Positions 1,251 through 60,789 of a stretch of 64,000 nucleotides of DNA are shown in pieces (positions within the stretch are counted from its first letter, which is position 1; each line of letters begins with the position of its first letter). The stretch spans positions 19,072,651 to 19,136,650 of the forward strand of contig CM120647.1 in assembly GCA_051362555.1 (NCBI GenBank). Direction: 5' to 3'. Origin of the DNA: Lingula anatina. Its lineage: Eukaryota; Animalia; Brachiopoda. Under the pieces are notes generated by a model. It ran no database searches. It had not been told where the DNA came from and saw only the letters and a program-made list of their open reading frames with translations. The position numbers were made by a program, and so were the translations under genes.

Positions 1251-1810
1251 ATGATTACTTTTGCCATTTTTGCGTTAGTTGCGTTGGGTCTGGCAGCTGT
1301 AATGCAGGAAGCTGAATCTGACTGCTGTGGCACCAAATCGAAAGGGTTCTGCCCAGACTGCACGTTGGTGGGTCTACTAGTACCGGGGAATTTCATCGGG
1401 AAGTGCATTCAAAACACATTGACAACACGTGTTGTATTAGGCGAACTTTGCATTACAGGAAAAAATAATACCGCACATTTTAGTTATAAATGTGCGACAA
1501 AGCTAGAAGTCCAATTTTATATTGTTTATTAGAATTTGATACGTACAGTAAATGGTGGTCAGAAAATCATTCTGTAGATACATGTTTGTGTGCGTGCCAG
1601 TTCGTTTGTATGCGTGTGCAGTGAAGGTGGGGGTGTGCCTAGGAGGGGGATAGAGCAGAGAGAAAGAGAGAGGGAGAGAGAGTAATTGATTTACGATTTC
1701 CATTCCAGGGAACCCCTTACTGTTCATATGGAAAATGTAACATATTTGGCTGCAAATGTGAACGTTAATGTAGAGCGGACTGCGGCTCGAAAATAGAGTA
1801 TGATGAAATA

Positions 1811-1860
<50 letters not shown>

Positions 1861-3752
1861 GACTAACAGATCCGCTGGCTAAATATGGCCGACCCACTTG
1901 AAGACGATGCCGCTAGTCTCCTGATGGTCTCCCCGCCTCCACACGCGCCGTCCCTGCAGGTCCAATTAATCATCGGAGCCGAGATTTTATCCGTTTAATG
2001 GAGCGACTGCATGTTGATACGGAGAGACCGTCAGGGGATTAAAGGGCTTGTTTTTAAGCGGGGTAGACCATATTTTGTTGGCGGATCACTTTAATCGCAT
2101 TCAGAACAGATGACTTGTAGACGAACTGACCTGCGGACTTAATATGGCCGACCCCACTAAAAAGCAAGCCGGTTAATCTCCTGATGGCCTCACCGCCTCC
2201 ACAAGAGCCATTTAATGGATAAAATCTCCGCTCTGGGGTTTAATTGCCAGGACCCGTTGCAAGAAGCTATCGCTAGTTCTCCCTCTCGTTATTGTGTCGT
2301 TGTTACCATAGATATTTAACGACTGGTCAGACCACTCGCTAACTCTAGAGTTTCATCGTACCCATGCGTAATGAATGAAAAAGAAAGGTTTCTTAGTTAC
2401 CGTTGTCTACCCTTTGTCTGTCTATACAATATGGCGGCTGCCTTTCTTGATAACCGTACAGCCAGACGGTAACGTAGACTACGACGTTTTTATTAGGGCT
2501 GAAATCTATTAGAATATGCACAATGATGCAATTGATGAAAGGTTGGCTGTGACAAATCAGGGTACATTAATGGTATAGCCTTCCAGTGACATGACATGAC
2601 CCGTAAGGTGCTGCTGCCAGTCGACCAAAATAAGCACAAAAATGCAGCAGGGGGGAGGGCATGTAAAACTGGCCTCAGGCAGTAAAATGTCACCTTGATA
2701 TGAAAAATAACACATCAAATTAAAAGTAGATGAACAAATTAATTTCTAAAATTTATTAAAAATTTTCAAATGATCCAAAATTGAAAAAATAAACTCATTT
2801 TTCTCTTATATGCAAATCTTCTCGCTTCAAACTTACTAAACAAGGAAGGCCGGAAGTGACGTATAACCTAAAATTACCTTTTCTGCTTGGCCGTATATAG
2901 ATGCTATAAATTGTTTGCTCTTGACGTCATACTCAAAGACTCGACGCGACTGTACCGCAGTAGCTCAGAAATAAAACGTACATGTAGGAATTGGTGTTTC
3001 TACTTTGGCCAACATTTCATCTAAAAGTTTAAGACTTGAAATGGCATTTTAATGATACGCCGCAACAATATATAAAGAGCGTGCTTATGTACATGTATTA
3101 AACTTTAAACGGGTGACATAAAGGTGAAATATTGGTGAGCTATGTTTACTTTGCTGCTTGTGTGAACTGCACATTACGTGCATGTTCTGCCTTATCATCT
3201 TGCCAATTTGAACATCAGTGATGTACGTCCAAAACTTCTATATACAAGAACGCTCGTGGTGGACGTATTTGTATCTTAAAGCTCTCCCTATCAATCATAC
3301 CATCACAGGGTCCTGTGATAATTTATACACGGGTATTTATCTTGCTTTTCTGTACAAGTTCTTTTTTGAAATAATAATAATGATAAATATATTAACAATC
3401 ATTATTATTATTATTATTATATTATTATTATTATTGAGAAGTAAATGATTGTGAAAAAATGAATTATAGTTTTAAAAATAATGACAAAGAATACATAAGA
3501 TCTTGGCTGAGCTGGTACAGTATATGGTAGAGAATACCTGAAAAGTAATATGTTCACACGAATTAAAGTAGATGTTTGCATTATTTGTTAAGAAAAATAG
3601 ACAGATATGGATGGGTCTTTGCGCATCGCGTGGTCTATTCCTGTACTTGCACGAACGGGAAAAGGGCCGCAAAGGATGTCATGTTTGACGACATGGACGT
3701 CAATGATGACAGCAAGATTGCCCCACAGGAGTTCGATCCTAATCTGCAATAG
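1251..3752 (+). pseudogene. Mytimycin-like Cys-rich peptide/EF-hand precursor, copy A (in-frame TAA in exon 2)
   Basis: Exons 1251-1367, 1709-1797, 3593-3752 with GT-AG junctions in the same phases as the paralogs. MITFAIFALVALGLAAVMQEAES-DCCGTKSKGFCPDCTL/GTPYCSYGKCNIFGCKCER*CRADCGSKIE/KIDRYGWVFAHRVVYSCTCTNGKRAAKDVMFDDMDVNDDSKIAPQEFDPNLQ. TAA at 1766-1768 where B, C and D have TCA. Confidence 0.85.
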
Positions 3753-10821: not shown

Positions 10822-10894
10822 TATTAATAGTTCAAACTGTGGACATTTTTCAATCATTTCGAGACTGAGAGAGAAGTAATCAAGGATTACTCAG
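10822..10894 (+). promoter_or_regulatory. Putative TATA-like box and 5' non-coding exon of copy B
   Basis: TATTAATA at 10822, TCAATCATT at ~10850, CAG|GTAAAA donor at 10895 and TTTCAG|AAG ATG acceptor at 11122. Confidence 0.65.
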
Positions 10895-11125: not shown

Positions 11126-12923
11126 ATGGCTACCTTTGCCAATTTTGCGTTAGTTGTGTTGGTTCTGGCAGTTTTAATGCACCAAGCTGAATCCGACTGC
11201 TGCTTTACAAAGAAGAATACTTACTGTGCGGACTGCACTAAGGTGGGAAGCGCATTCAGAACATATTCAGAACACAAATTTGGTATGAGGCGAACTTTGC
11301 ATTACAGTGGAAAATGATATCATACATTTTGGTTATAAATGTATAACAAAGCTAGAACGCTATTTTTTATATTGTTCATTGAAATTCTATACGTAAATGG
11401 TCGTAAGCAAATCATTCTGTAAGGACGTGTGTGCCAGTGCGTTTGTATGCGTGTGCAGTGAAGGTGGGGTGTGCCTAGGAGGGGTATAGAGCAGAGAGAA
11501 AGAGATAGGGAGAGAGAGTAATTGATTTACGATTTCCATTCCAGGGAACCCCTTACTGTTCATATGGAAAATGTAACATATTTGGCTGCAAATGTGAACG
11601 TTCATGTAGAGCGGACTGCGGCATGACCATAACGTAAAATGAAATCTCTCTCTCTCTCTCTCTCTCTCCCTCTCTCTCTCTCTTGGAGATAGATAGTGCG
11701 CATTCAGACCAAATGAGAGATAAGCTCTCTCTATCTCGGAGCTGAGATTTAATCCGTTTCATGGCGCGTGTGTATGTAGAGACAGGAAGACCATCAGGGA
11801 ATTAAGGGGCTTTTGCAATTGTCGGCGGATCAGTTAGAGCGCATTCACAACAGATGATCTGCGGACTAAATGTGGCCGACCCCATTAAAATAAAGCCGCT
11901 TTATCTTCTGATGGCTCCACTCCCCCCACAAGAGCCATTAAATGGATTAAGGCTTCGTTCACATGCAATGTCTATTTTCTAAATTCTATTTTCTATTTTC
12001 GGTATGTCTTATGATCACGGTCTGTGCACTGAATATCCTGCGGCGTAATTACTGGCAGCGCGAGCCAGTTACTATAAGTTACTATAAGTAACTGGCTCGC
12101 GGTGCCAGTAATTACGCGGCGGGATATTCAGTGCACAGACCGTGATCATAAGATAGCGCGAATAGAAAATAGAATTTAGAAAATAGACATTGCATGTGAA
12201 CGAAGCCTAAATCTCTGTTTTGGAGTTTAATTGCTAGACTCCTGCAGGGATGGCGCGTGTAGAGGCGGGCAGACCGTCAGGGCACAGGTTGGCATTGATT
12301 ATAAGTGGGTTGAACATGTTTGATCCGCGGGTTAGTCGGCAGATAAAGTTGTTCTGAATGTGCTCTCGATTCTCAGGTCGCGGATCATCTGTTCTGAATA
12401 TATACGTACTATAAAGCGCTGCTGTATTCAGCACTGCTGAAATGTATGTTACTTTCTCTGCTTGGCCGTAAATAGATGCTAAGATGGATTGCGCGTGACG
12501 TCATACTCGAAGACTGGGCATGACCGTACCGCAGCCATTCAGAAATTAAACGTGGGGATTGGTGTTTTCTACTCTGGCCAACATTTCATAATGCATCGAG
12601 CAGTTTAAGGCGTGAAATGGTATTTTAAAGATACGCCGCAACAATATATTAAGAGTGTGCTTATGTATGTATTAAAGTTTAAAAGGGTGACATATAAGTG
12701 AACTATGTTTACTTTGCTGCTAGTGTGGTCTGCGCATTAGTTGCATGTTTTGCCATATCATCTGGCCAATTTGAAAAGCAGTGTTGTAAGCTTAAACCAT
12801 ATGTATCCAAAAGCACTCGTGGTGAACGTATTATATTTTAAAGCTCTCCCTATCAATCATATCTTCTATCAGGTGATTTTCAGGGGTATTTCTCTGGCTT
12901 TTCTGTACACGTCCCCTTTTTGC

Positions 12924-12954
<31 letters not shown>

Positions 12955-13279
12955 GTGATGAAATAAATGATAGTGATAAATAATGAATTACAATGTTAAA
13001 TATAATGATAAAGTAATGATAAAATATCGATATTAATAAGGTCATCGCTGATCTGGTATAAGGTAGAGAATGTCTAAAAAGTAATATACGAATTCAAATA
13101 GATGTTTGCATTATTTGCTTAGTAAATTAGTCAGCGGGTGGTTCATGTCGCGAAAGGAGAAGACTACCTGTACTTGCTCAAACGGGAAAAGGGCCGCCAA
13201 GGACGTAGGCTTTGACGACATGAACGCCAATAATGACGGCAAGATTGACCCCAAGGAGTTCGACCCTGATCTGCAATAG
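11126..13279 (+). CDS. Mytimycin-like secreted 12-Cys peptide precursor with C-terminal EF-hand, copy B (120 aa, intact)
   Basis: Exons 11126-11242, 11545-11633, 13123-13279. MATFANFALVVLVLAVLMHQAES-DCCFTKKNTYCADCTK/GTPYCSYGKCNIFGCKCERSCRADCGMTIT/KLVSGWFMSRKEKTTCTCSN-GKR-AAKDVGFDDMNANNDGKIDPKEFDPDLQ*. The signal + 12 Cys + EF-hand layout and the DCC..DCT..GTPY..NIFGC motif match mussel mytimycin as recalled. Confidence 0.9.
11951..12207. mobile_element. Almost fully palindromic Harbinger-type MITE in intron 2 of copy B
   Basis: TAA|GGCTTCGTTCACATGCAATG ... CATTGCATGTGAACGAAGCC|TAA with ~120-bp inverted arms. Absent at the homologous site in copy A. Confidence 0.85.
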
Positions 13280-25526: not shown

Positions 25527-27833
25527 CTATTGCAGATCAGGATCGAACTCCTGGTGGTCAATCTTGCCGTCATCATTGGCGTCCATGTCGTCAAACACAA
25601 CATCCTTAGGGGCCCTTTTCCCATTCTTGCAAACACAGGCAACGATTTGTTTTTTCGTTGAATACCACCCAGTCGTCGACACTCTAAACAAATAATGCAA
25701 AGATCTTAATTTCTTGTGAACATATTATTTTTCAGATATTATGTACCAGAGATGTCAGCGATGACGTAATTATTAATATTGACTCTTTATTATTATTTTT
25801 AATATTGTAAATCATTATTTTCACAAACATTTATTTCATCGCCACTACTATTTTTATTGCAAAAAAAAAAATGAATGTGTTCAGAAAAGCCAGAAGAAAC
25901 TTGTTATTATGTAATAAAATTATCACAGGACCCTGCTGGAAGATGTAGAAAAGGTAACATACATATACAGTTTAAGCAGTGCCTCGGGGTGAATGTAGCA
26001 GAGATAGGTAACTAGCACATTCAAGAAAGATGATCCACGGACTGAGAGCACTTTCAGAACAAGTTTATCTGCGGACTAACCAGCGGATTGGATATATTTA
26101 ACCAACTTAAAAGCAATGCCTGATGACTCATGTGGAGGCCGTGAGACCATCAGGTGATTAAGCGGCTTGCTGTTTGATGGGTTCGGCCATATTTAGTCCA
26201 CGGATCAGTTAGTTTGCAGATCATTTGTTCTGAATACGCTCTAACTGATTCTCCGACCCCGCTCGAAAGTAATCCTCTTAATTCCCCGATGGTCTCTTCG
26301 GCTTTACGTGCACATTTAACGGATTAACTCTCGGCTTCGAAATAGAGAGGGCCTATGTATAATATGTTCTGAATGGATAATATCTATCTTCAAGAGAGAG
26401 AGGGGGTCCCATTCAGAATTAGGGACTTACTATGTTCAAATATGGCCGACCCACTTGAATACTTTCCCACGTGGTATCTATTCAATGTTTATTAGCGGGT
26501 TAGACGGCAAGCTTTGGCGTGGGTGGCCGTCGGACTAGTGAGTCCCTTATTCTGAACGGAGAGAGAGAGAGAGGGAGAGAGATTTCTTCTTACGGTTTGA
26601 TCTCGCTGCCGCAGTCCTTCCTACATGAACGTTCACATTTGCAGCCAAATATGTTACATTTTCCATATGAACAGTAAGGGGTTGCCTGCAATGTAAATCC
26701 GGAATTAATATCCCTCTCTCTCACTTTCTGTAATCATAAAATGCACGGACACACACACATACGTACACAATTGATTTCTGACGATCATTAACGCATCGAA
26801 TTTCAATAAACTCCATGAATATAATAGAAGATAAGAAAAGATGGCCGACAGCTGCAATCATCTGTAAGTGCTCTGTGAAACTATGCCCTAAAGCACAGTA
26901 ACCACTGCACAAAGATCTTTCTTATCCAGAGGTGTAAAATAGACATTTTTTTAAAATTAAAATTAAAGATACACAGAACAGATTTCCTAAAAGCTTTAGG
27001 TTAAAATTAAGAAACATGCAGAAAAAACTCCACTTAACCTGTGGACCGGGAAAATCTCGAACAAACAAACAAAGGAAGACAAGATGGAGGACTCTTACAA
27101 CATCCTTGGTGTTCAACCTGATGCAAGTACAGACGAAATAAGTGATGTCTTCACATCCAAAGTAAGCAAAATTACTGTACTTAATGATGGAAAACTACAA
27201 GCAGGCTCTGGTTGTTTCATTCCCCATAATGATAAAGCAATCTGTGCCAAAATGCAAAGAAACTACAGAAGAAGAGGGAGACTGTGACAAATGACACAAC
27301 ACAAAACATACCTGCTAGCTGATGAGAAATAATTGTCGCTTGAGAGCCTTACATCTATATATAATTGAAAGTTTGAAAAAAAAACACCCATCAATAGCAA
27401 TAGTCGTTTTATTCTGTGCTAGTTCCCTGTAATCATTCCATAATTTGCATATGTATTGGTATAGATTTGTATAGTTGTTATAAAGTTGTTATGATTAGAG
27501 TAGATAGCCTGTAAAAGTAACTTGTATGCATTGTAGTGCTCAATAAAGATTATTTAAAAATGGACTTAAAGCTTTATTGTAAATTCATACTAAAATGTAC
27601 GGTGTCATGTTCCCTATAATGCAAAGTCCGCCTGATACCAATCGTGTTGTGAGTGTGCTATGAATGCACTTAGAGAGGAATTATCCCGGTACTAGTAGAC
27701 TCACCTTTGTGCAGTCTGCGCAGATTTTCACAGTTGAATATTTAAATTTCGCGCCGCAGCAGTCGGATTCAGCTTGTTGTATTAAAGCTGCCAGACACAA
27801 CGCAACTAATGCAAAATTGGCAAAGAAAACCAT
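25527..27833 (-). CDS. Mytimycin-like secreted 12-Cys peptide precursor with C-terminal EF-hand, copy C (125 aa, intact)
   Basis: Exons 27833-27705, 26685-26594, 25683-25527. MVFFANFALVALCLAALIQQAES-DCCGAKFKYSTVKICADCTK/ATPYCSYGKCNIFGCKCERSCRKDCGSEIKP/VSTTGWYSTKKQIVACVCKN-GKR-APKDVVFDDMDANDDGKIDHQEFDPDLQ*. Canonical donors GTGAGT and GTAAGA. Putative non-coding exon ~28103-28060. Confidence 0.92.
27084..27161 (+). pseudogene. J-domain (DnaJ)-like first-exon fragment, antisense in intron 1 of copy C; deleted variant at 36850-36915 in copy D
   Basis: MEDSYNILGVQPDASTDEISDVFTSK followed by a GTAAGC donor resembles the J-domain start (YxILGV...AS..EI). No HPD exon follows. Confidence 0.55.
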
Positions 27834-29233: not shown

Positions 29234-30329
29234 AGAAAAGATTTCTAAAGATTGCGTTTGATAACCATTACAGGAAAAACATATATAACAGAGGATGTGC
29301 GAGTCAGTCGCAGTGTAACAGGAATGGACGTCCTACCGGGTAAGAATGAAGTGCGGGCTCCCATATGATTTGTACAGATTAGCGTTAGTTGGTGTATTGG
29401 GGTTAACACTGAATATAAAATTCATTTGTAAATCATTTTGAAAGTTGTGTTGGCTTTCTACTAAAGATATATGTTCAAATTTCACTCAAAACGTCAACAT
29501 GACCATGACACTATTATGTATATAAACCTTTCTTTTGCTTATTTGGTGTTTCTTCTTTAATACCCCCCTCTGTTTCTCAATCCGTTTTCTAGTTGCACGA
29601 CTTTTTCTGGGAACTGGTTGTAAGGAAAAATATACTACTCTATGCAAGGTATTTTTTCCAGTAATCTGTCTAAATTTTACACGTTATGCGGCGTTGATAT
29701 TTACATTTTTTACTTAAATTTTGAAGAGTTATTATTATAAAAGTATGACATCCGTCGCTAATGTAAGAATTAAGATCAATCTATTGGTATATGCCTGTTG
29801 TCGGGTTCCAAGCTACCGGTATGAGACCATATGCCTTGGATACTGCTGGAGAGAGAGAGAGAGAGAGATATTATCTTAATTGCACGGGTTTCATTTGATA
29901 CAGTTAGTCCTATGATATACGAGAACGAATTAAGTTTTATAAGCACTTCATCGTAACATTTAATTTTCACACTTTTTATCCTTAAAATGTATATCAATTA
30001 TTCATCACGATTCTCCATTCATTCTGCATTACATTCCCGTATACAGTAGATCAAAGTAGTTTCTGAATCAAAAGTTGTTAACACCAGTATTGTAATGTGC
30101 TTTTTTCATAACAGACAGAGGAGACGCTTTCATAGTAAAACTCTCATATGTCTGTGTTTAATTGATTTTTTTTTTATCTAGGTAGATATATGAATGTGAA
30201 AGTTGTCAAACTTTGTAATTTTTGCTTGAAAATAATAAAAGTTATACAAGTTGTGTAGGCTTTCTACAAGTACTAAATCAGAATTGTTCACATTTCACAC
30301 AAAACATCAACATCTTCTTCAATTGGTCT

Positions 30330-38400: not shown

Positions 38401-39649
38401 CTTCTGAAATGTGAAGTGACAACATGGAGTTGACACAAAGGCAAAAGGAATCTTAGAGGACAGTGGAGCTCACATCTCTTCTGTCAGCAGGTATACGTAA
38501 CCTTCAGTGGCACGATGACAGTAAAGACTTGAGATGTCATACGGTGTTCTGTAAAACCCAATGTGCAAAATGGCAATCGGCGAAATATAATACTATGCAG
38601 CAATTAAAAGAAAATGTCTTCGATAGAATATTTACCTGAGTTATCCTTGATCACTTCTCTCTCAGTCTTGAAATGATTGAAAAATATCCACAGTTTGAGC
38701 TATTTATACCGTTTCCAAGTACAGCGCAAGCTCAGTCAAGGCATCGGCTTTTGAAGCAGAGTAAACACCTGTATTCAGAAAAGATCAAAGCATGTAAAAC
38801 GGACATCAAAGTTATGTACTGGTACAGGTATTTCACAATGATTTTACCAAAATCTAAATCATCATTTTCCGACTGATTCAGCGATGCGCAGAAAGATAAT
38901 GTGTGTTCGAGACTGATTTTCATTGGTTGAAATTATTTTCACCAAAAAGACAATTTATCTTTAGGTTTTACACATGCGCATTTTAAAATCTAGCTTCATC
39001 TGCTTGAATGTAATCTTTAGACATAACACCATCAATTCATTAACGAATCAAATAATTCAGAGGTCTGGAGACAAAATTTTACTAAAGCTAGGTGAAAAAC
39101 GTGGTGGCACTGTACTCAGTATACTGTTTAGTTTCGCCGATGAAGTGGAATATGTTGCCTGTTAACCAACAACAAATTAAATCACAGGGACCATTTAAGG
39201 GGCTAATGCATATTTGATGTTTGTTCTCGGGTTCGAATTCTTGAAAGTTCCTTGAATTTTGCTAGAAAAGATTTCTAAAAATTGCGTTTGATTGTCACAA
39301 CAGAAAAAACGTACAAACAGAGGGTAGTTAAGTCAGTCGCAGTGTAACAGGAATGGACGTCCTACCGGGTAAGAATGAAGTGCGGGCTCCCATATGATTT
39401 GTACAGGTTAGGGTTAGTTGGTGTATTGGGGTTAACACTGTAAATAAAATTCATTTATAAATAATGTTGATCAACATGAGAGAGAATTGTGCAGTGAAAG
39501 GAGATTTGAAATTGACAATAGTTTCAGTCAAAAATTAAAAGACAAAATGGATATATTTTTAGGAATAGGTCTTTGAAGCGAGAAGCTATAAGTTTATAAA
39601 CTTTTCAAGACTACAGCTATGAGACCATCTGCCTTGGATATTGCTGGAG

Positions 39650-39697
<48 letters not shown>

Positions 39698-58046: not shown

Positions 58047-58077
<31 letters not shown>

Positions 58078-60789
58078 GCACTTTTACCGATAACACGATA
58101 AGTGGAAAGCCATTTTGCCTTTTGATTTGAAACTTGCAGAACTGATGAATATTCATAATACGCAGGTCAAGTTCGAAAATCAGCATGATCGGGTCACTCT
58201 TAGGGAATTTATGCTGTTTTTTCACTTTTTTCAACATATATGCAGCACCGATAACACAATAAGTGGAAAACCATTTTACCCTTTGGCTTGAAACTTACAG
58301 AACTGATGAATATTCATAACATGCAGGTCAAGTTCGAAAATCGGCATGATTGGGCCATTTTTAGGGAATTTATGCTGTTTTTTCACTTTTTCAGCATATA
58401 TGCAGCACCGATAACACAGTAAGTGGAAAACCATTTTACCTTTTGGCTTGAAACTTACAGAACTGATGAAAATTCTTAATACGCAGGTCAAGTTCGAAAA
58501 TCAGCATGATTGGGCCATTTTTAGGGAATTTATGCTGTTTTTTCACTTTTTTCAGCATATATGCAGCACCGATAACACGATAAGTGGAAAACCATTTTAC
58601 CTTTTGGCTTGAAACTTACAGAACTGATGAATATTCATAATACGCAGGTCAAGTTCGAAAAACAGCATGATTGGGTCATTTTTAGGGAATTTATGCTGTT
58701 TTTTCACTTTTTTCAGCATATATGCAGCACCGATAACACGATAAGTGGAAAACCATTTTACCTTTTGGCTTGAAACTTACAGAACTGATGAATATTTATA
58801 ATACGCAGGTCAAGTTTGAAAATCAGCTTTATCGGGTCATTTTTATGGAAGTTATGCTATTTTTTAATTTTTTTAGCATAATGCAACACTGATACACGAT
58901 AAGTGAAAAACTGTTTTACCTTTTGGCTTGAAACTTACAGAACTGATGAATATTCATATTACATAGGCAAAGTTTGAAAATCAGCGTGATCGGACCAATT
59001 TTATGGAAGTTATGCTGTTTTTTTCACTTTTTTCAGCATGTATGCAATACCGCTAACGCATTTCAAGAAAAATCAATTGGCCAATTGTCTTGAAATTTAC
59101 AGGGGAGATCAGTCTTACTGAAATACAGATGGAGTTTGAAAATGGTTCAGTTTTGGTGAAGTTATGCCTTTTTTTGTATATAAGTGTTTTTTTTTTCCTT
59201 TGATTTAATTCTTAGGCATGTTAAGAATCTCCTCTGTGAACTAATTAAATATGTAAAGGTGTTCTTTTGACATTTTCTGCATCTTAACAATATTGTTAGT
59301 TGATTATATAAAAAAGATGGTTAACCTGTTATTGTGTATTATATAACAAAGTGTCAAAAATGGAAATAATAATAAACTCATATCTTTACAGTTTGTCAGA
59401 TTCAATCATTCACCATGTTCAGAATCTCAGAATGGAGCAAAATGGCAATTTAAAATTGTTCTATTGATATTTTTCCTATGACAGCAATTTTCTTAGTTGT
59501 TCATTTAAAAATGACAGTAAATTGATTATTTTGTTATATGAAAAAAAGATGTTGAAAATGGAAAGAAAATCAATTCAATACAGTTATCTTTTGTTTACAT
59601 TTTAGCATTTTGAAAGTGTGACTCTGAACTTCCATGGCCTTGAAGACATTTCCATGTCACATTTTCTGTAAATCCATGATACTTTTATTTTATTATTAAA
59701 AATTAATGGTCATTATATTATATTGCATAAAAGTTGAAGAAAACCCTAATTTTGGAAATGGCTGCCGGAATGACCATTAAGGAAAAACCATGTTACTTAT
59801 GATACTCAAACTTACTGAAAAGTTTCGTAAGACTGATGTGCAGTTTGTGTTGGAAAATCAGTGTGATTGTTTTCCGTTTTGGAAGCAATGTAGCTCTATA
59901 GAGTGCTATATGGGGCTACTGTGTATGGATGGTGGTAATTGCCCCTTGGGATAGTCACAAGCTAAATTCAGAGCTATAAAATCATTTGCCTAATTGATTT
60001 CCAAGTGCCCATTAAATAAGATTACATAAAACACACGCTGAGACTTCCCAGTAAAGTCCCATAGGTTAAGCTCTCTTAACTGTGTCACATAATTAGGAAT
60101 CTATGATAATTATGCAGGTAAATGTTGTTTAATATTGCAAATAAGTTAACAAAACAAAACAAAAAAATAGATGAATAACAGTGTCTTATTATCCTCAAAC
60201 ACATTGGGGTTATTCATATCATGTTATTACAGCAAGATTAAAAGTTTGAATAGTAGCTTTAATGGGATATTTTTGTGTTTTCTTTTTAATTTTTTTTTTC
60301 AAACACTGGCATTTTCAGCTCCCATCCACCTGAAGCTCTTCACATTTTCTGTATTTTCACATAAGCAGTTGCACTGGTTTTTATTTCTTTAAACATTATG
60401 TAATATTATTTTATGCACTGTCATCATTATTTAGATATTGGGATTTTCATTATGTGAATTTGGTCCTGAAACTGTAATCTTATTGCAGGGGTGGATTGAG
60501 GCCATCTTCTGGGTCTTTCAGATTTTAAAGTTCACATTGATGGGCATCTCTTTTTTCTGTTGGAAGACCATCAAAAATGTAGGATGGATCAACAAAGATA
60601 ATTTGGAATACTGTCAGAAAATATCTCTGGATCAGCTCCTGTTATTGACGATGTCACCTGTTGTGCATGATTAAATCTCAGCGTTGATTGACAGTGCTAT
60701 TGTAGGCATCAAAATTGACAAAATGAACCATTTTCTGCATTTTTATTTTGTGTTTTTGTCTGTACATTTGACAGCTTTGCTGCCTTGTT
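57973..60789 (+). mobile_element. Non-autonomous Helentron-associated (HINE/pearl-like) element
   Basis: T-run, 5' palindrome ATGTACAGACAC-A-GATGTGTCTGTACAT, (CGT/CGC)n microsatellite and tandem core. The 3' end has a sub-terminal repeat TGTCTGTACAT and a small hairpin GACAGCTTTGCTGCC before TTGTT. Confidence 0.7.
58087..59110 (+). repeat. ~161-bp tandem array (about 6 units) inside the element
   Basis: CCGATAACAC..AAGTGGAAA unit starts at ~58087, 58248, 58408, 58569, 58730 and 58890, diverging toward the 3' end. Confidence 0.92.

What the first reader, a model, noticed from the sequence alone, without database searches (positions are those of the whole stretch)
11195..13182. Two hypervariable loops on a fixed Cys scaffold, with an invariant Gly-Trp
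Seen: loop 1 is GTKSKGF / FTKKNTY / GAKFKYSTVKI / GAKFKYLGGNI. Loop 2 is SKIEKIDRYGWVFAHRVVYS / MTITKLVSGWFMSRKEKTT / SEIKPVSTTGWYSTKKQIVA / SEITDVKKSGWFATLKYTVT. These coding stretches are harder to align than the neighbouring intron and 3' UTR, while GW and all Cys residues are kept. Inference: diversifying selection on target-contacting loops. Loop 2 may form a beta-hairpin with Trp at its tip for membrane or glycan contact.
Basis: partly seen in the sequence, partly recalled or inferred. Interest (0 to 1): 0.7.

Follow-up and report, generated by a model that had tools for sequence, protein, structure and literature searches.

The report
Brachiopod mytimycins with a fast-evolving hairpin
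Four neighbouring gene copies in a lamp shell encode small cysteine-rich proteins built like the mussel antifungal peptide mytimycin; one surface loop, predicted to be a long hairpin, changes its amino acids about seven times faster than the silent rate, likely because it touches a changing microbial target.

Summary
The window carries four three-exon paralogues (A-D; the finding covers B). C and D equal database proteins labelled uncharacterised, Lingula anatina. Each encodes a signal peptide, a 12-Cys cationic peptide, NGKR and an acidic one-EF-hand tail. This is the layout and Cys order of type II mytimycin, with a Diedel-type core (Pfam above cut-off; the only fold match among 48,161 chains, but weak). 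The difference is a 20-21-residue C10-C11 loop (6-7 in the mussel peptides compared), predicted as a beta-hairpin with Gly-Trp in its turn. Loop 2 has omega about 7; this survives a free local rate, a multi-hit model, 12 gap placements, three topologies, both independent pairs and 149 null simulations. Loop 1 is fast but omega is 0.84 once its local rate is freed, so selection there is not shown, although reads reveal further loop types. GW is not family-wide. Copy A has a stop in this sequence only. Target and activity are untested. Diversifying loops on Cys scaffolds are common in invertebrate defence peptides; the new parts are mytimycin-type genes outside mussels, their link to Diedel, and the long selected hairpin.

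The parts
10873..10894 (+). Copy B: 3' end of a non-coding first exon (its start was not mapped)
   Evidence: Donor CAG|GT in 4 of 4 copies; loose read ends upstream of the ATG exon match it
11126..11242 (+). Copy B coding exon 1: predicted signal peptide (11126-11194), CC, loop 1, CxxC
11204..11224 (+). Loop 1 (C2-C3), FTKKNTY; fast-evolving, selection not shown
11545..11633 (+). Copy B coding exon 2: conserved mytimycin/Diedel core with the NIF loop, and the start of loop 2 (11623-11633)
   Evidence: Pfam Diedel 23.2 bits, cut-off 21.3
13123..13279 (+). Copy B coding exon 3: rest of loop 2, CxC, NGKR, acidic tail, stop
13123..13168 (+). Loop 2, exon-3 part: predicted beta-hairpin under positive selection; GW at 13136-13141
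13181..13192 (+). NGKR: inferred dibasic cleavage site and possible amidation signal
   Evidence: Kept in 4 of 4 copies; a dibasic site precedes the mytimycin tail; the amidation reading is from my own knowledge
13193..13276 (+). Acidic tail with one EF-hand-like loop (about 13223-13258), under purifying selection
   Evidence: Pfam EF-hand matches below cut-off; dN/dS 0.40, charge -5 to -8
1251..3752 (+). Paralogue A (exons 1251-1367, 1709-1797, 3593-3752); TAA at 1766-1768 in this sequence
   Evidence: stop not seen in 4 of 4 runs laid there
25527..27833 (-). Paralogue C (exons 27833-27705, 26685-26594, 25683-25527), equal to P0001
33731..38400 (-). Paralogue D (exons 38400-38272, 36498-36407, 33887-33731), equal to P0002
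   Evidence: D-type splice joins in RNA reads

Best explanation
These are four tandem paralogues of a 12-cysteine, mytimycin-type precursor, likely secreted host-defence peptides, whose long C10-C11 loop, predicted to be a beta-hairpin, evolves under positive selection, likely driven by changing microbial targets. Shown: gene structure, Cys array, spliced family transcripts, omega about 7 in loop 2, purifying selection on core and tail. Predicted: signal peptide, Diedel-like disulfide core, hairpin with GW in the turn. Inferred: the precursor is cut after AES and at KR, perhaps amidated; the acidic EF-hand tail masks or sorts the cationic peptide (+4 to +8) until release; the fixed core with its exposed Ile-Phe patch does the conserved job on the microbial surface, while the hairpin, and perhaps loop 1, sets which targets are bound or escapes microbial proteases and inhibitors; duplication and sequence exchange between copies build a small repertoire.
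For: The layout signal / 12 Cys / dibasic site / acidic EF-hand tail is that of mytimycin. Cys spacing 0,7 or 11,2,6,4,4,1,3,3,20-21,1 against 0,7,2,6,4,4,1,1,8,6,1 in Mytilus A1 and 0,6,2,6,4,4,1,3,5,7,1 in Modiolus Mphi_1, both counted by eye. Loop 2: omega 6.9, 2dlnL 51.5; free local rate p 0.0011; gap-free 9 codons omega 8.3; three topologies p 0.001-0.003; M2a vs M1a p 4e-8, with multi-hit changes p 0.0017; 12 of 12 gap placements p 0.001-0.034; pairs A-B omega 5.7 and C-D 4.1; 0 of 149 null simulations came near (max 7.5). The synonymous tree length 0.41-0.47 matches the non-coding one, 0.44. Model mean pLDDT 84 with the hairpin. Spliced family transcripts in X17 and X18. At least 10 further Lingula paralogues.
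Against: No activity, tissue, induction or target data. Only four DNA sequences, one with a stop. Synonymous difference by simple counting is also raised in the loops (0.455 vs 0.198; local dN/dS 1.37 for both loops, 0.63 for loop 1, 1.95 for loop 2), and third positions of loop 2 vary more than non-coding DNA (12 of 17). The copies have a mosaic history. Expression of copy B itself is not shown: depth over its exons 1 and 3 was below 1 in 4 of 4 runs, and most reads are under 95% alike. The only relative with a solved structure, Diedel, is a cytokine and integrin ligand. Mussel MgCRP-I peptides show the same evolutionary signature yet had no significant antimicrobial activity (abstract). In Mytilus mytimycins positive selection was sparse and weak.
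Confidence: 0.6

Rival explanations
1. Diedel-like host signalling ligands (cytokines). The core binds a host receptor and the loops diversify through receptor co-evolution or escape from pathogen decoys.
For: Pfam Diedel above cut-off for exon 2 of B and for P0001. Diedel is the best sequence hit in the PDB (E 8e-5) and the only fold match among 48,161 chains (Z 3.0, rmsd 2.9, 52 aligned). The Asn-Ile-Phe loop proposed as Diedel's interaction site is invariant here.
Against: The match covers only the small SD2 core; there is no sign of Diedel's ferredoxin-like subdomain, and no RGD in the four copies. The fold score is weak. The cationic peptide, dibasic site and acidic EF-hand tail fit mytimycin better. 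omega near 7 among close paralogues is more typical of direct conflict (my own knowledge).
Confidence: 0.15
2. A non-immune conflict molecule: gamete recognition, a deterrent against predators, parasites or fouling organisms, or a shell or mucus component.
For: Positive selection on a Cys scaffold does not name the partner. Three of four RNA runs show next to nothing over the exons, which suggests narrow expression. The core plus EF-hand layout also occurs in fungi, where a haemocyte role does not apply.
Against: The closest characterised family with this layout is antifungal and haemocyte-expressed. The tissue of the runs is not given, so no positive evidence points to another role.
Confidence: 0.13
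3. No adaptive diversification: the loops are old or foreign tracts left out while gene conversion homogenised the flanks, or local mutation and indel hot spots.
For: Intron 0 groups B with C and D (B-C 0.09) while intron 1/exon 2 groups A with B (93% over 218 nt). Loop 1 fits omega 0.84 with a fourfold local rate and has a 4-codon indel. Counted pS is raised in the loops.
Against: For loop 2 the model with omega 1 and a free local rate is rejected (p 0.001-0.034 over all alignments), and the fitted local synonymous rate is 1.0 on the best alignment (1.0-2.3 over the 12 placements). The core and tail next to the loop are no more divergent than non-coding DNA.
Confidence: 0.1

Closest known systems
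Mytimycins, type II array (Mytilida; PMC8004829)
   Same: Signal peptide, CC-C-C-C-C-C-C-C-C-C-C order with 12 Cys, the same spacing through C8, DCT-TP-C and CNIFGC core, dibasic site, acidic EF-hand tail, multicopy family with stop-bearing copies.
   Different: C10-C11 loop of 20-21 residues instead of 6-7; C9-C10 of 3 instead of 5-8; one EF-hand loop instead of a pair; strong clustered positive selection instead of 8 of 67 weakly supported sites; brachiopod host, whereas the paper suggests restriction to Mytilida; antifungal activity untested.
Diedel (Drosophila CG11501, PF13164, PDB 3ZZO/3ZZR; PMC3307722)
   Same: Disulfide-rich SD2-type core with the conserved Asn-Ile-Phe loop; secreted.
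   Different: No sign of the ferredoxin-like SD1 subdomain or an RGD; has a hairpin, a cleavage site and an EF-hand tail; Diedel acts as a cytokine and integrin ligand.
MgCRP-I of Mytilus (PMC4558851) and, from memory, conopeptides and defensins
   Same: Conserved pre/pro regions, invariant Cys, hypervariable mature residues, duplication plus positive selection.
   Different: Different Cys array (6 Cys in MgCRP-I). Here most of the mature peptide is conserved and variation is confined to two loops.

Membership tests
Mytimycin | Precursor: signal peptide + Cys-rich mature peptide + C-terminal extension | tested here: met
   the signal peptide is judged from sequence and a predicted N-terminal helix, no predictor was run
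Mytimycin | 10 backbone Cys in one of five arrays; type II has 12 | tested here: met
   12 of 12 in type II order in 4 of 4 copies against Table 1; spacing compared by eye; the last loops differ in length
Mytimycin | Central core under purifying selection | tested here: met
   Scaffold dN/dS 0.33
Mytimycin | Dibasic site followed by an anionic tail with an EF-hand | tested here: met
   GKR in 4 of 4, tail charge -5 to -8; EF-hand matches at E 6e-5 to 8e-3 but below Pfam cut-offs; single loop, degenerate in A
Mytimycin | Cationic mature peptide | tested here: met
   K+R minus D+E = +4, +6, +8, +4
Mytimycin | Antifungal activity; haemocyte expression and induction by fungi | not testable with these tools
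   No assay; tissue of the RNA runs not given
Mytimycin | Common descent with mussel mytimycins rather than with other core+EF-hand proteins | not tested
   No named mussel mytimycin came back; most hits were not looked up by name, and the tree had no labelled mussel rows
Diedel (PF13164) | Pfam model above gathering score | tested here: met
   B exon 2: 23.2, P0001: 22.6, cut-off 21.3; P0002 is below at 17.3; 4 of 12 Lingula proteins pass
Diedel (PF13164) | SD2 disulfide core fold | tested here: inconclusive
   Only match of 48,161 chains but Z 3.0; Foldseek rank 1 with E 2.8
Diedel (PF13164) | Ferredoxin-like SD1 subdomain | tested here: inconclusive
   The profile match covers positions 29-64 of 76 only; the model has no matching helix; coordinates could not be inspected
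Diedel (PF13164) | Cytokine or integrin-ligand activity | not testable with these tools
   No RGD in the four translations; activity known from the abstract

The most novel reading that the evidence does not exclude
Mytimycin and Diedel are two branches of one old, widespread family of secreted disulfide-core + EF-hand precursors found in animals and fungi. The brachiopod lineage has extended one loop into a long beta-hairpin that works like an antibody CDR: a rigid scaffold with a Gly-Trp anchor at the tip and freely evolving strands, giving a germline repertoire in which the hairpin decides which microbe is bound.
Probability: 0.25. Interest if true: 0.65.

Novelty: new variant of a known kind. 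Interest (0 to 1): 0.42.

Why it matters
It extends mytimycin-type genes beyond mussels and ties them to the Drosophila cytokine Diedel, whose crystal structure gives a first template for a family with no solved structure (per PMC8004829). It also gives a natural series of peptides with a near-identical core and very different hairpins, so the open question of what mytimycins bind and how specificity arises becomes testable by loop swaps. The evolutionary pattern itself, variable loops on a fixed Cys frame, is common in invertebrate defence peptides.

Tried and rejected
No whole genome was held, so copy number and alleles outside the window were seen only through proteins and reads. A fold from a 3-sequence alignment failed (pLDDT 39) and was discarded; the 105-sequence model was used. 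That alignment took 104 of the 109 core-bearing proteins (P0031, P0057, P0074, P0115 and P0144 left out as aberrant or repeated) plus P0152. Foldseek found nothing at E 0.001 or better. The Atlas gave no usable hit. No RNA holder was listed in the index. The three look-ups in earlier findings were empty. 'Copy A is a fixed pseudogene' is disfavoured: X1 and X4 hold A's loop 1 with no difference, yet all 5 contigs per run and all RNA reads at 1767 read a sense codon; paralogue reads are mixed in and contigs drop rare variants. 'GW is a family hallmark' was rejected (2 of 10 distant paralogues). Simple NG86 ratios with local dS were set aside as saturated. The tree on 46 columns puts 10 of 12 Lingula proteins in one clade at support 0.82; too weak to build on. 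No complex was predicted, as no partner is claimed. A viral fold search was not run. Not in print as far as searched: 'mytimycin-like' 0 papers; Diedel + mytimycin 0; brachiopod + mytimycin 2, of which the journal version shows no link in its passages. Gerdol et al. 2018 on Lingula immunity (doi 10.1016/j.dci.2017.12.021, seen only as a reference) is not held and may already describe these genes.

Full report
What is there. Six-frame searches find all eight loop strings. They belong to four paralogous genes with three coding exons and GT-AG introns: A + 1251-1367/1709-1797/3593-3752, B + 11126-11242/11545-11633/13123-13279, C - 27833-27705/26685-26594/25683-25527, D - 38400-38272/36498-36407/33887-33731. 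Spliced C and D equal P0001 and P0002, which the database labels uncharacterised proteins of Lingula anatina; the species is inferred from that. Each product has a hydrophobic leader, a 12-Cys peptide of net charge +4 to +8, NGKR, and an acidic tail (-5 to -8) with one EF-hand-like loop. Loop 1 lies between C2 and C3 (7 or 11 residues). Loop 2 lies between C10 and C11 (20-21 residues) and is split by a phase-2 intron. Copy A has TAA at 1766-1768. All 5 contigs laid there in each of X1 and X4, and all reads of X17 and X18, read a sense codon, although X1 and X4 hold A's loop 1 unchanged. The stop is therefore likely private to this sequence or an error.

Is the variation more than chance? Yes. 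Variable columns are 41 of 51 in loop 2 and 15 of 21 in loop 1 against 191 of 575 in flanking non-coding blocks (p 6.6e-11 and 6e-4). The non-coding tree length, 0.44, agrees with the synonymous tree length from codon models, 0.41-0.47, so the neutral yardstick is consistent.

Is it selection? For loop 2, yes as far as four sequences allow. My own GY94 likelihood model gives omega 6.9 against 0.57 elsewhere (2dlnL 51.5). With a free local rate, omega is 7.0 and the rate 0.99 (p 0.0011 against omega 1). The nine gap-free codons between GW and C11 give 8.3 (p 0.0047 with free rate). The other two topologies give p 0.003. Site models that choose no region give M2a over M1a at p 4e-8, and p 0.0017 when double and triple changes are allowed; 9 of the 14 sites with posterior above 0.9 in the single-hit fit are in loop 2 and 3 in loop 1. 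Twelve of 12 gap placements keep p between 0.001 and 0.034. The independent pairs A-B and C-D give omega 5.7 and 4.1. None of 149 null simulations with a window picked after the fact exceeded 2dlnL 7.5; these simulations check the shared-rate test only. For loop 1, omega is 3.4 with a shared rate but 0.84 with a local rate of 4.3 (p 0.77), and C-D alone gives p 0.41; indels or block replacement explain it as well. Against my reading: counted pS is also raised in the loops (0.455 vs 0.198), the signal peptide has pN/pS near 1.2, and the copies are mosaics (intron 0 groups B with C and D; intron 1/exon 2 groups A with B).

Reads. At 90% likeness, three of four RNA runs show next to nothing over the exons and X17 shows low depth. 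At 85%, X17 and X18 give 210 and 144 reads on A's first two exons, only 10 and 3 of them 99% alike, so they come from paralogues or distant alleles. They join exon 1 to exon 2 at the predicted sites, continue into D-type exon 3, and carry further loop-1 types that I translated by hand: YTDLYKF (27 and 8 reads), RPIQDQY and HPIQDQY (2 each), LVKEYKY and LVKEYNY (4 and 5), GTKKNTY and GTKKNTH (9 and 2); an X1 contig adds YEKGYRF. The low counts may include errors. The family is expressed and loop 1 is highly varied; expression of copy B itself is not shown.

Structure. With 105 homologues the model of P0001 reaches mean pLDDT 84: strands at 70-76 and 86-92 with GW (79-80) in the connecting turn, and a short hairpin in the 11-residue loop 1. 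Keeping G and W in all copies has probability 0.008 and 0.014 at the loop's omega but 0.42 and 0.52 at omega 1: GW is exempt from the fast change, not proven essential. Among 10 more distant Lingula paralogues, 2 keep GW, 3 have GFW or WG, and 5 have no Trp there.

Relatives. A profile search of 1.84 billion representatives gave 267 hits at E 0.001 or better, 150 listed. Of the 151 proteins then stored, 109 of at most 215 residues carry the core, 60 of these an EF-hand loop, and 13 fit a long-loop pattern: 11 Lingula, one unnamed, one spurious by eye. Named carriers of the core include lancelets, a mealybug, a springtail, a nematode, Daphnia and two fungi. Diedel is the best PDB sequence hit (E 8e-5) and the only structural match, a weak one (Z 3.0, rmsd 2.9, 52 residues).

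Comparison with what is known. PMC8004829 (I read parts 1-3 and 5 of 5, and parts 1 and 8 of 9 of its supplement) defines mytimycins as signal + Cys-rich peptide + dibasic site + anionic EF-hand tail, lists a 12-Cys type II array, reports a core under purifying selection with few, weak positive sites, and suggests restriction to Mytilida on the basis of bivalve searches. The Lingula genes meet every sequence feature I could test; their spacing through C9 matches the Modiolus and Perna type II peptides, and they differ in a 20-21-residue C10-C11 loop and a single EF-hand loop. PMC3307722 (passages) describes an exposed Ile-Phe patch on the conserved Asn-Ile-Phe loop of Diedel as a possible binding site; this loop is invariant here. 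PMC9116668 (abstract) shows Diedel as an integrin ligand. PMC4558851 (abstract) shows the same duplication-and-selection pattern in mussel peptides that lacked antimicrobial activity, a caution. Searches for 'mytimycin-like' and for Diedel with mytimycin found no paper. The 2018 survey of Lingula immunity could not be read and may lower the novelty.

Verdict. It works most likely like a mytimycin: a processed, secreted host-defence peptide with a fixed core and a selected hairpin (0.6). Rivals are a Diedel-like signal (0.15), a non-immune conflict role (0.13) and non-adaptive loop divergence (0.1, mainly relevant to loop 1). Membership in the mytimycins is met on sequence and untested on function and descent. 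New variant of a known kind; interest 0.42.

Noticed in passing
window 39500-44850 and 29400-30300: The region upstream of these genes (9.5-10.1 kb in copy B) is repeated about five times upstream of copy D and once upstream of C (families D2, D6-D8): an amplified promoter-side segment.
   Followed up: no
window +4702, -40449, -42982: Decayed exon-2-like relics of a more distant paralogue, in three copies (weak tblastn E 0.005-0.3).
   Followed up: no
window 1630-1847 vs 11466-11683; intron 0 of B, C, D: Patchy similarity between copies points to gene conversion or unequal exchange.
   Followed up: partly
window 11945-12213: A long inverted repeat in intron 2 of copy B with high read depth from elsewhere in the genome, MITE-like.
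   Followed up: no
window -18688 to -20103; -6155 to -6765; -7878: Open frames that look like MULE/FLYWCH, Tc1/mariner and Harbinger-type transposase pieces between the gene copies (labels recalled, not tested).
   Followed up: no
window 58056-59143: Tandem array of about 161-nt units, seven copies, with inverted copies near 30.6-31.4 kb.
   Followed up: no
P0156 vs P0002: Database isoforms of copy D differ at one residue at the exon 1/2 join (A or S); only one exon 2 is present for D in this window.
   Followed up: no
window +47183: A 344-codon low-complexity, charged open frame, probably an exon of an unrelated gene.
   Followed up: no
P0091, P0176, P0177 (fungi); P0020, P0162 (lancelets): The mytimycin/Diedel core with an EF-hand tail occurs in fungi and lancelets, so the layout is far older or more mobile than described.
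   Followed up: partly
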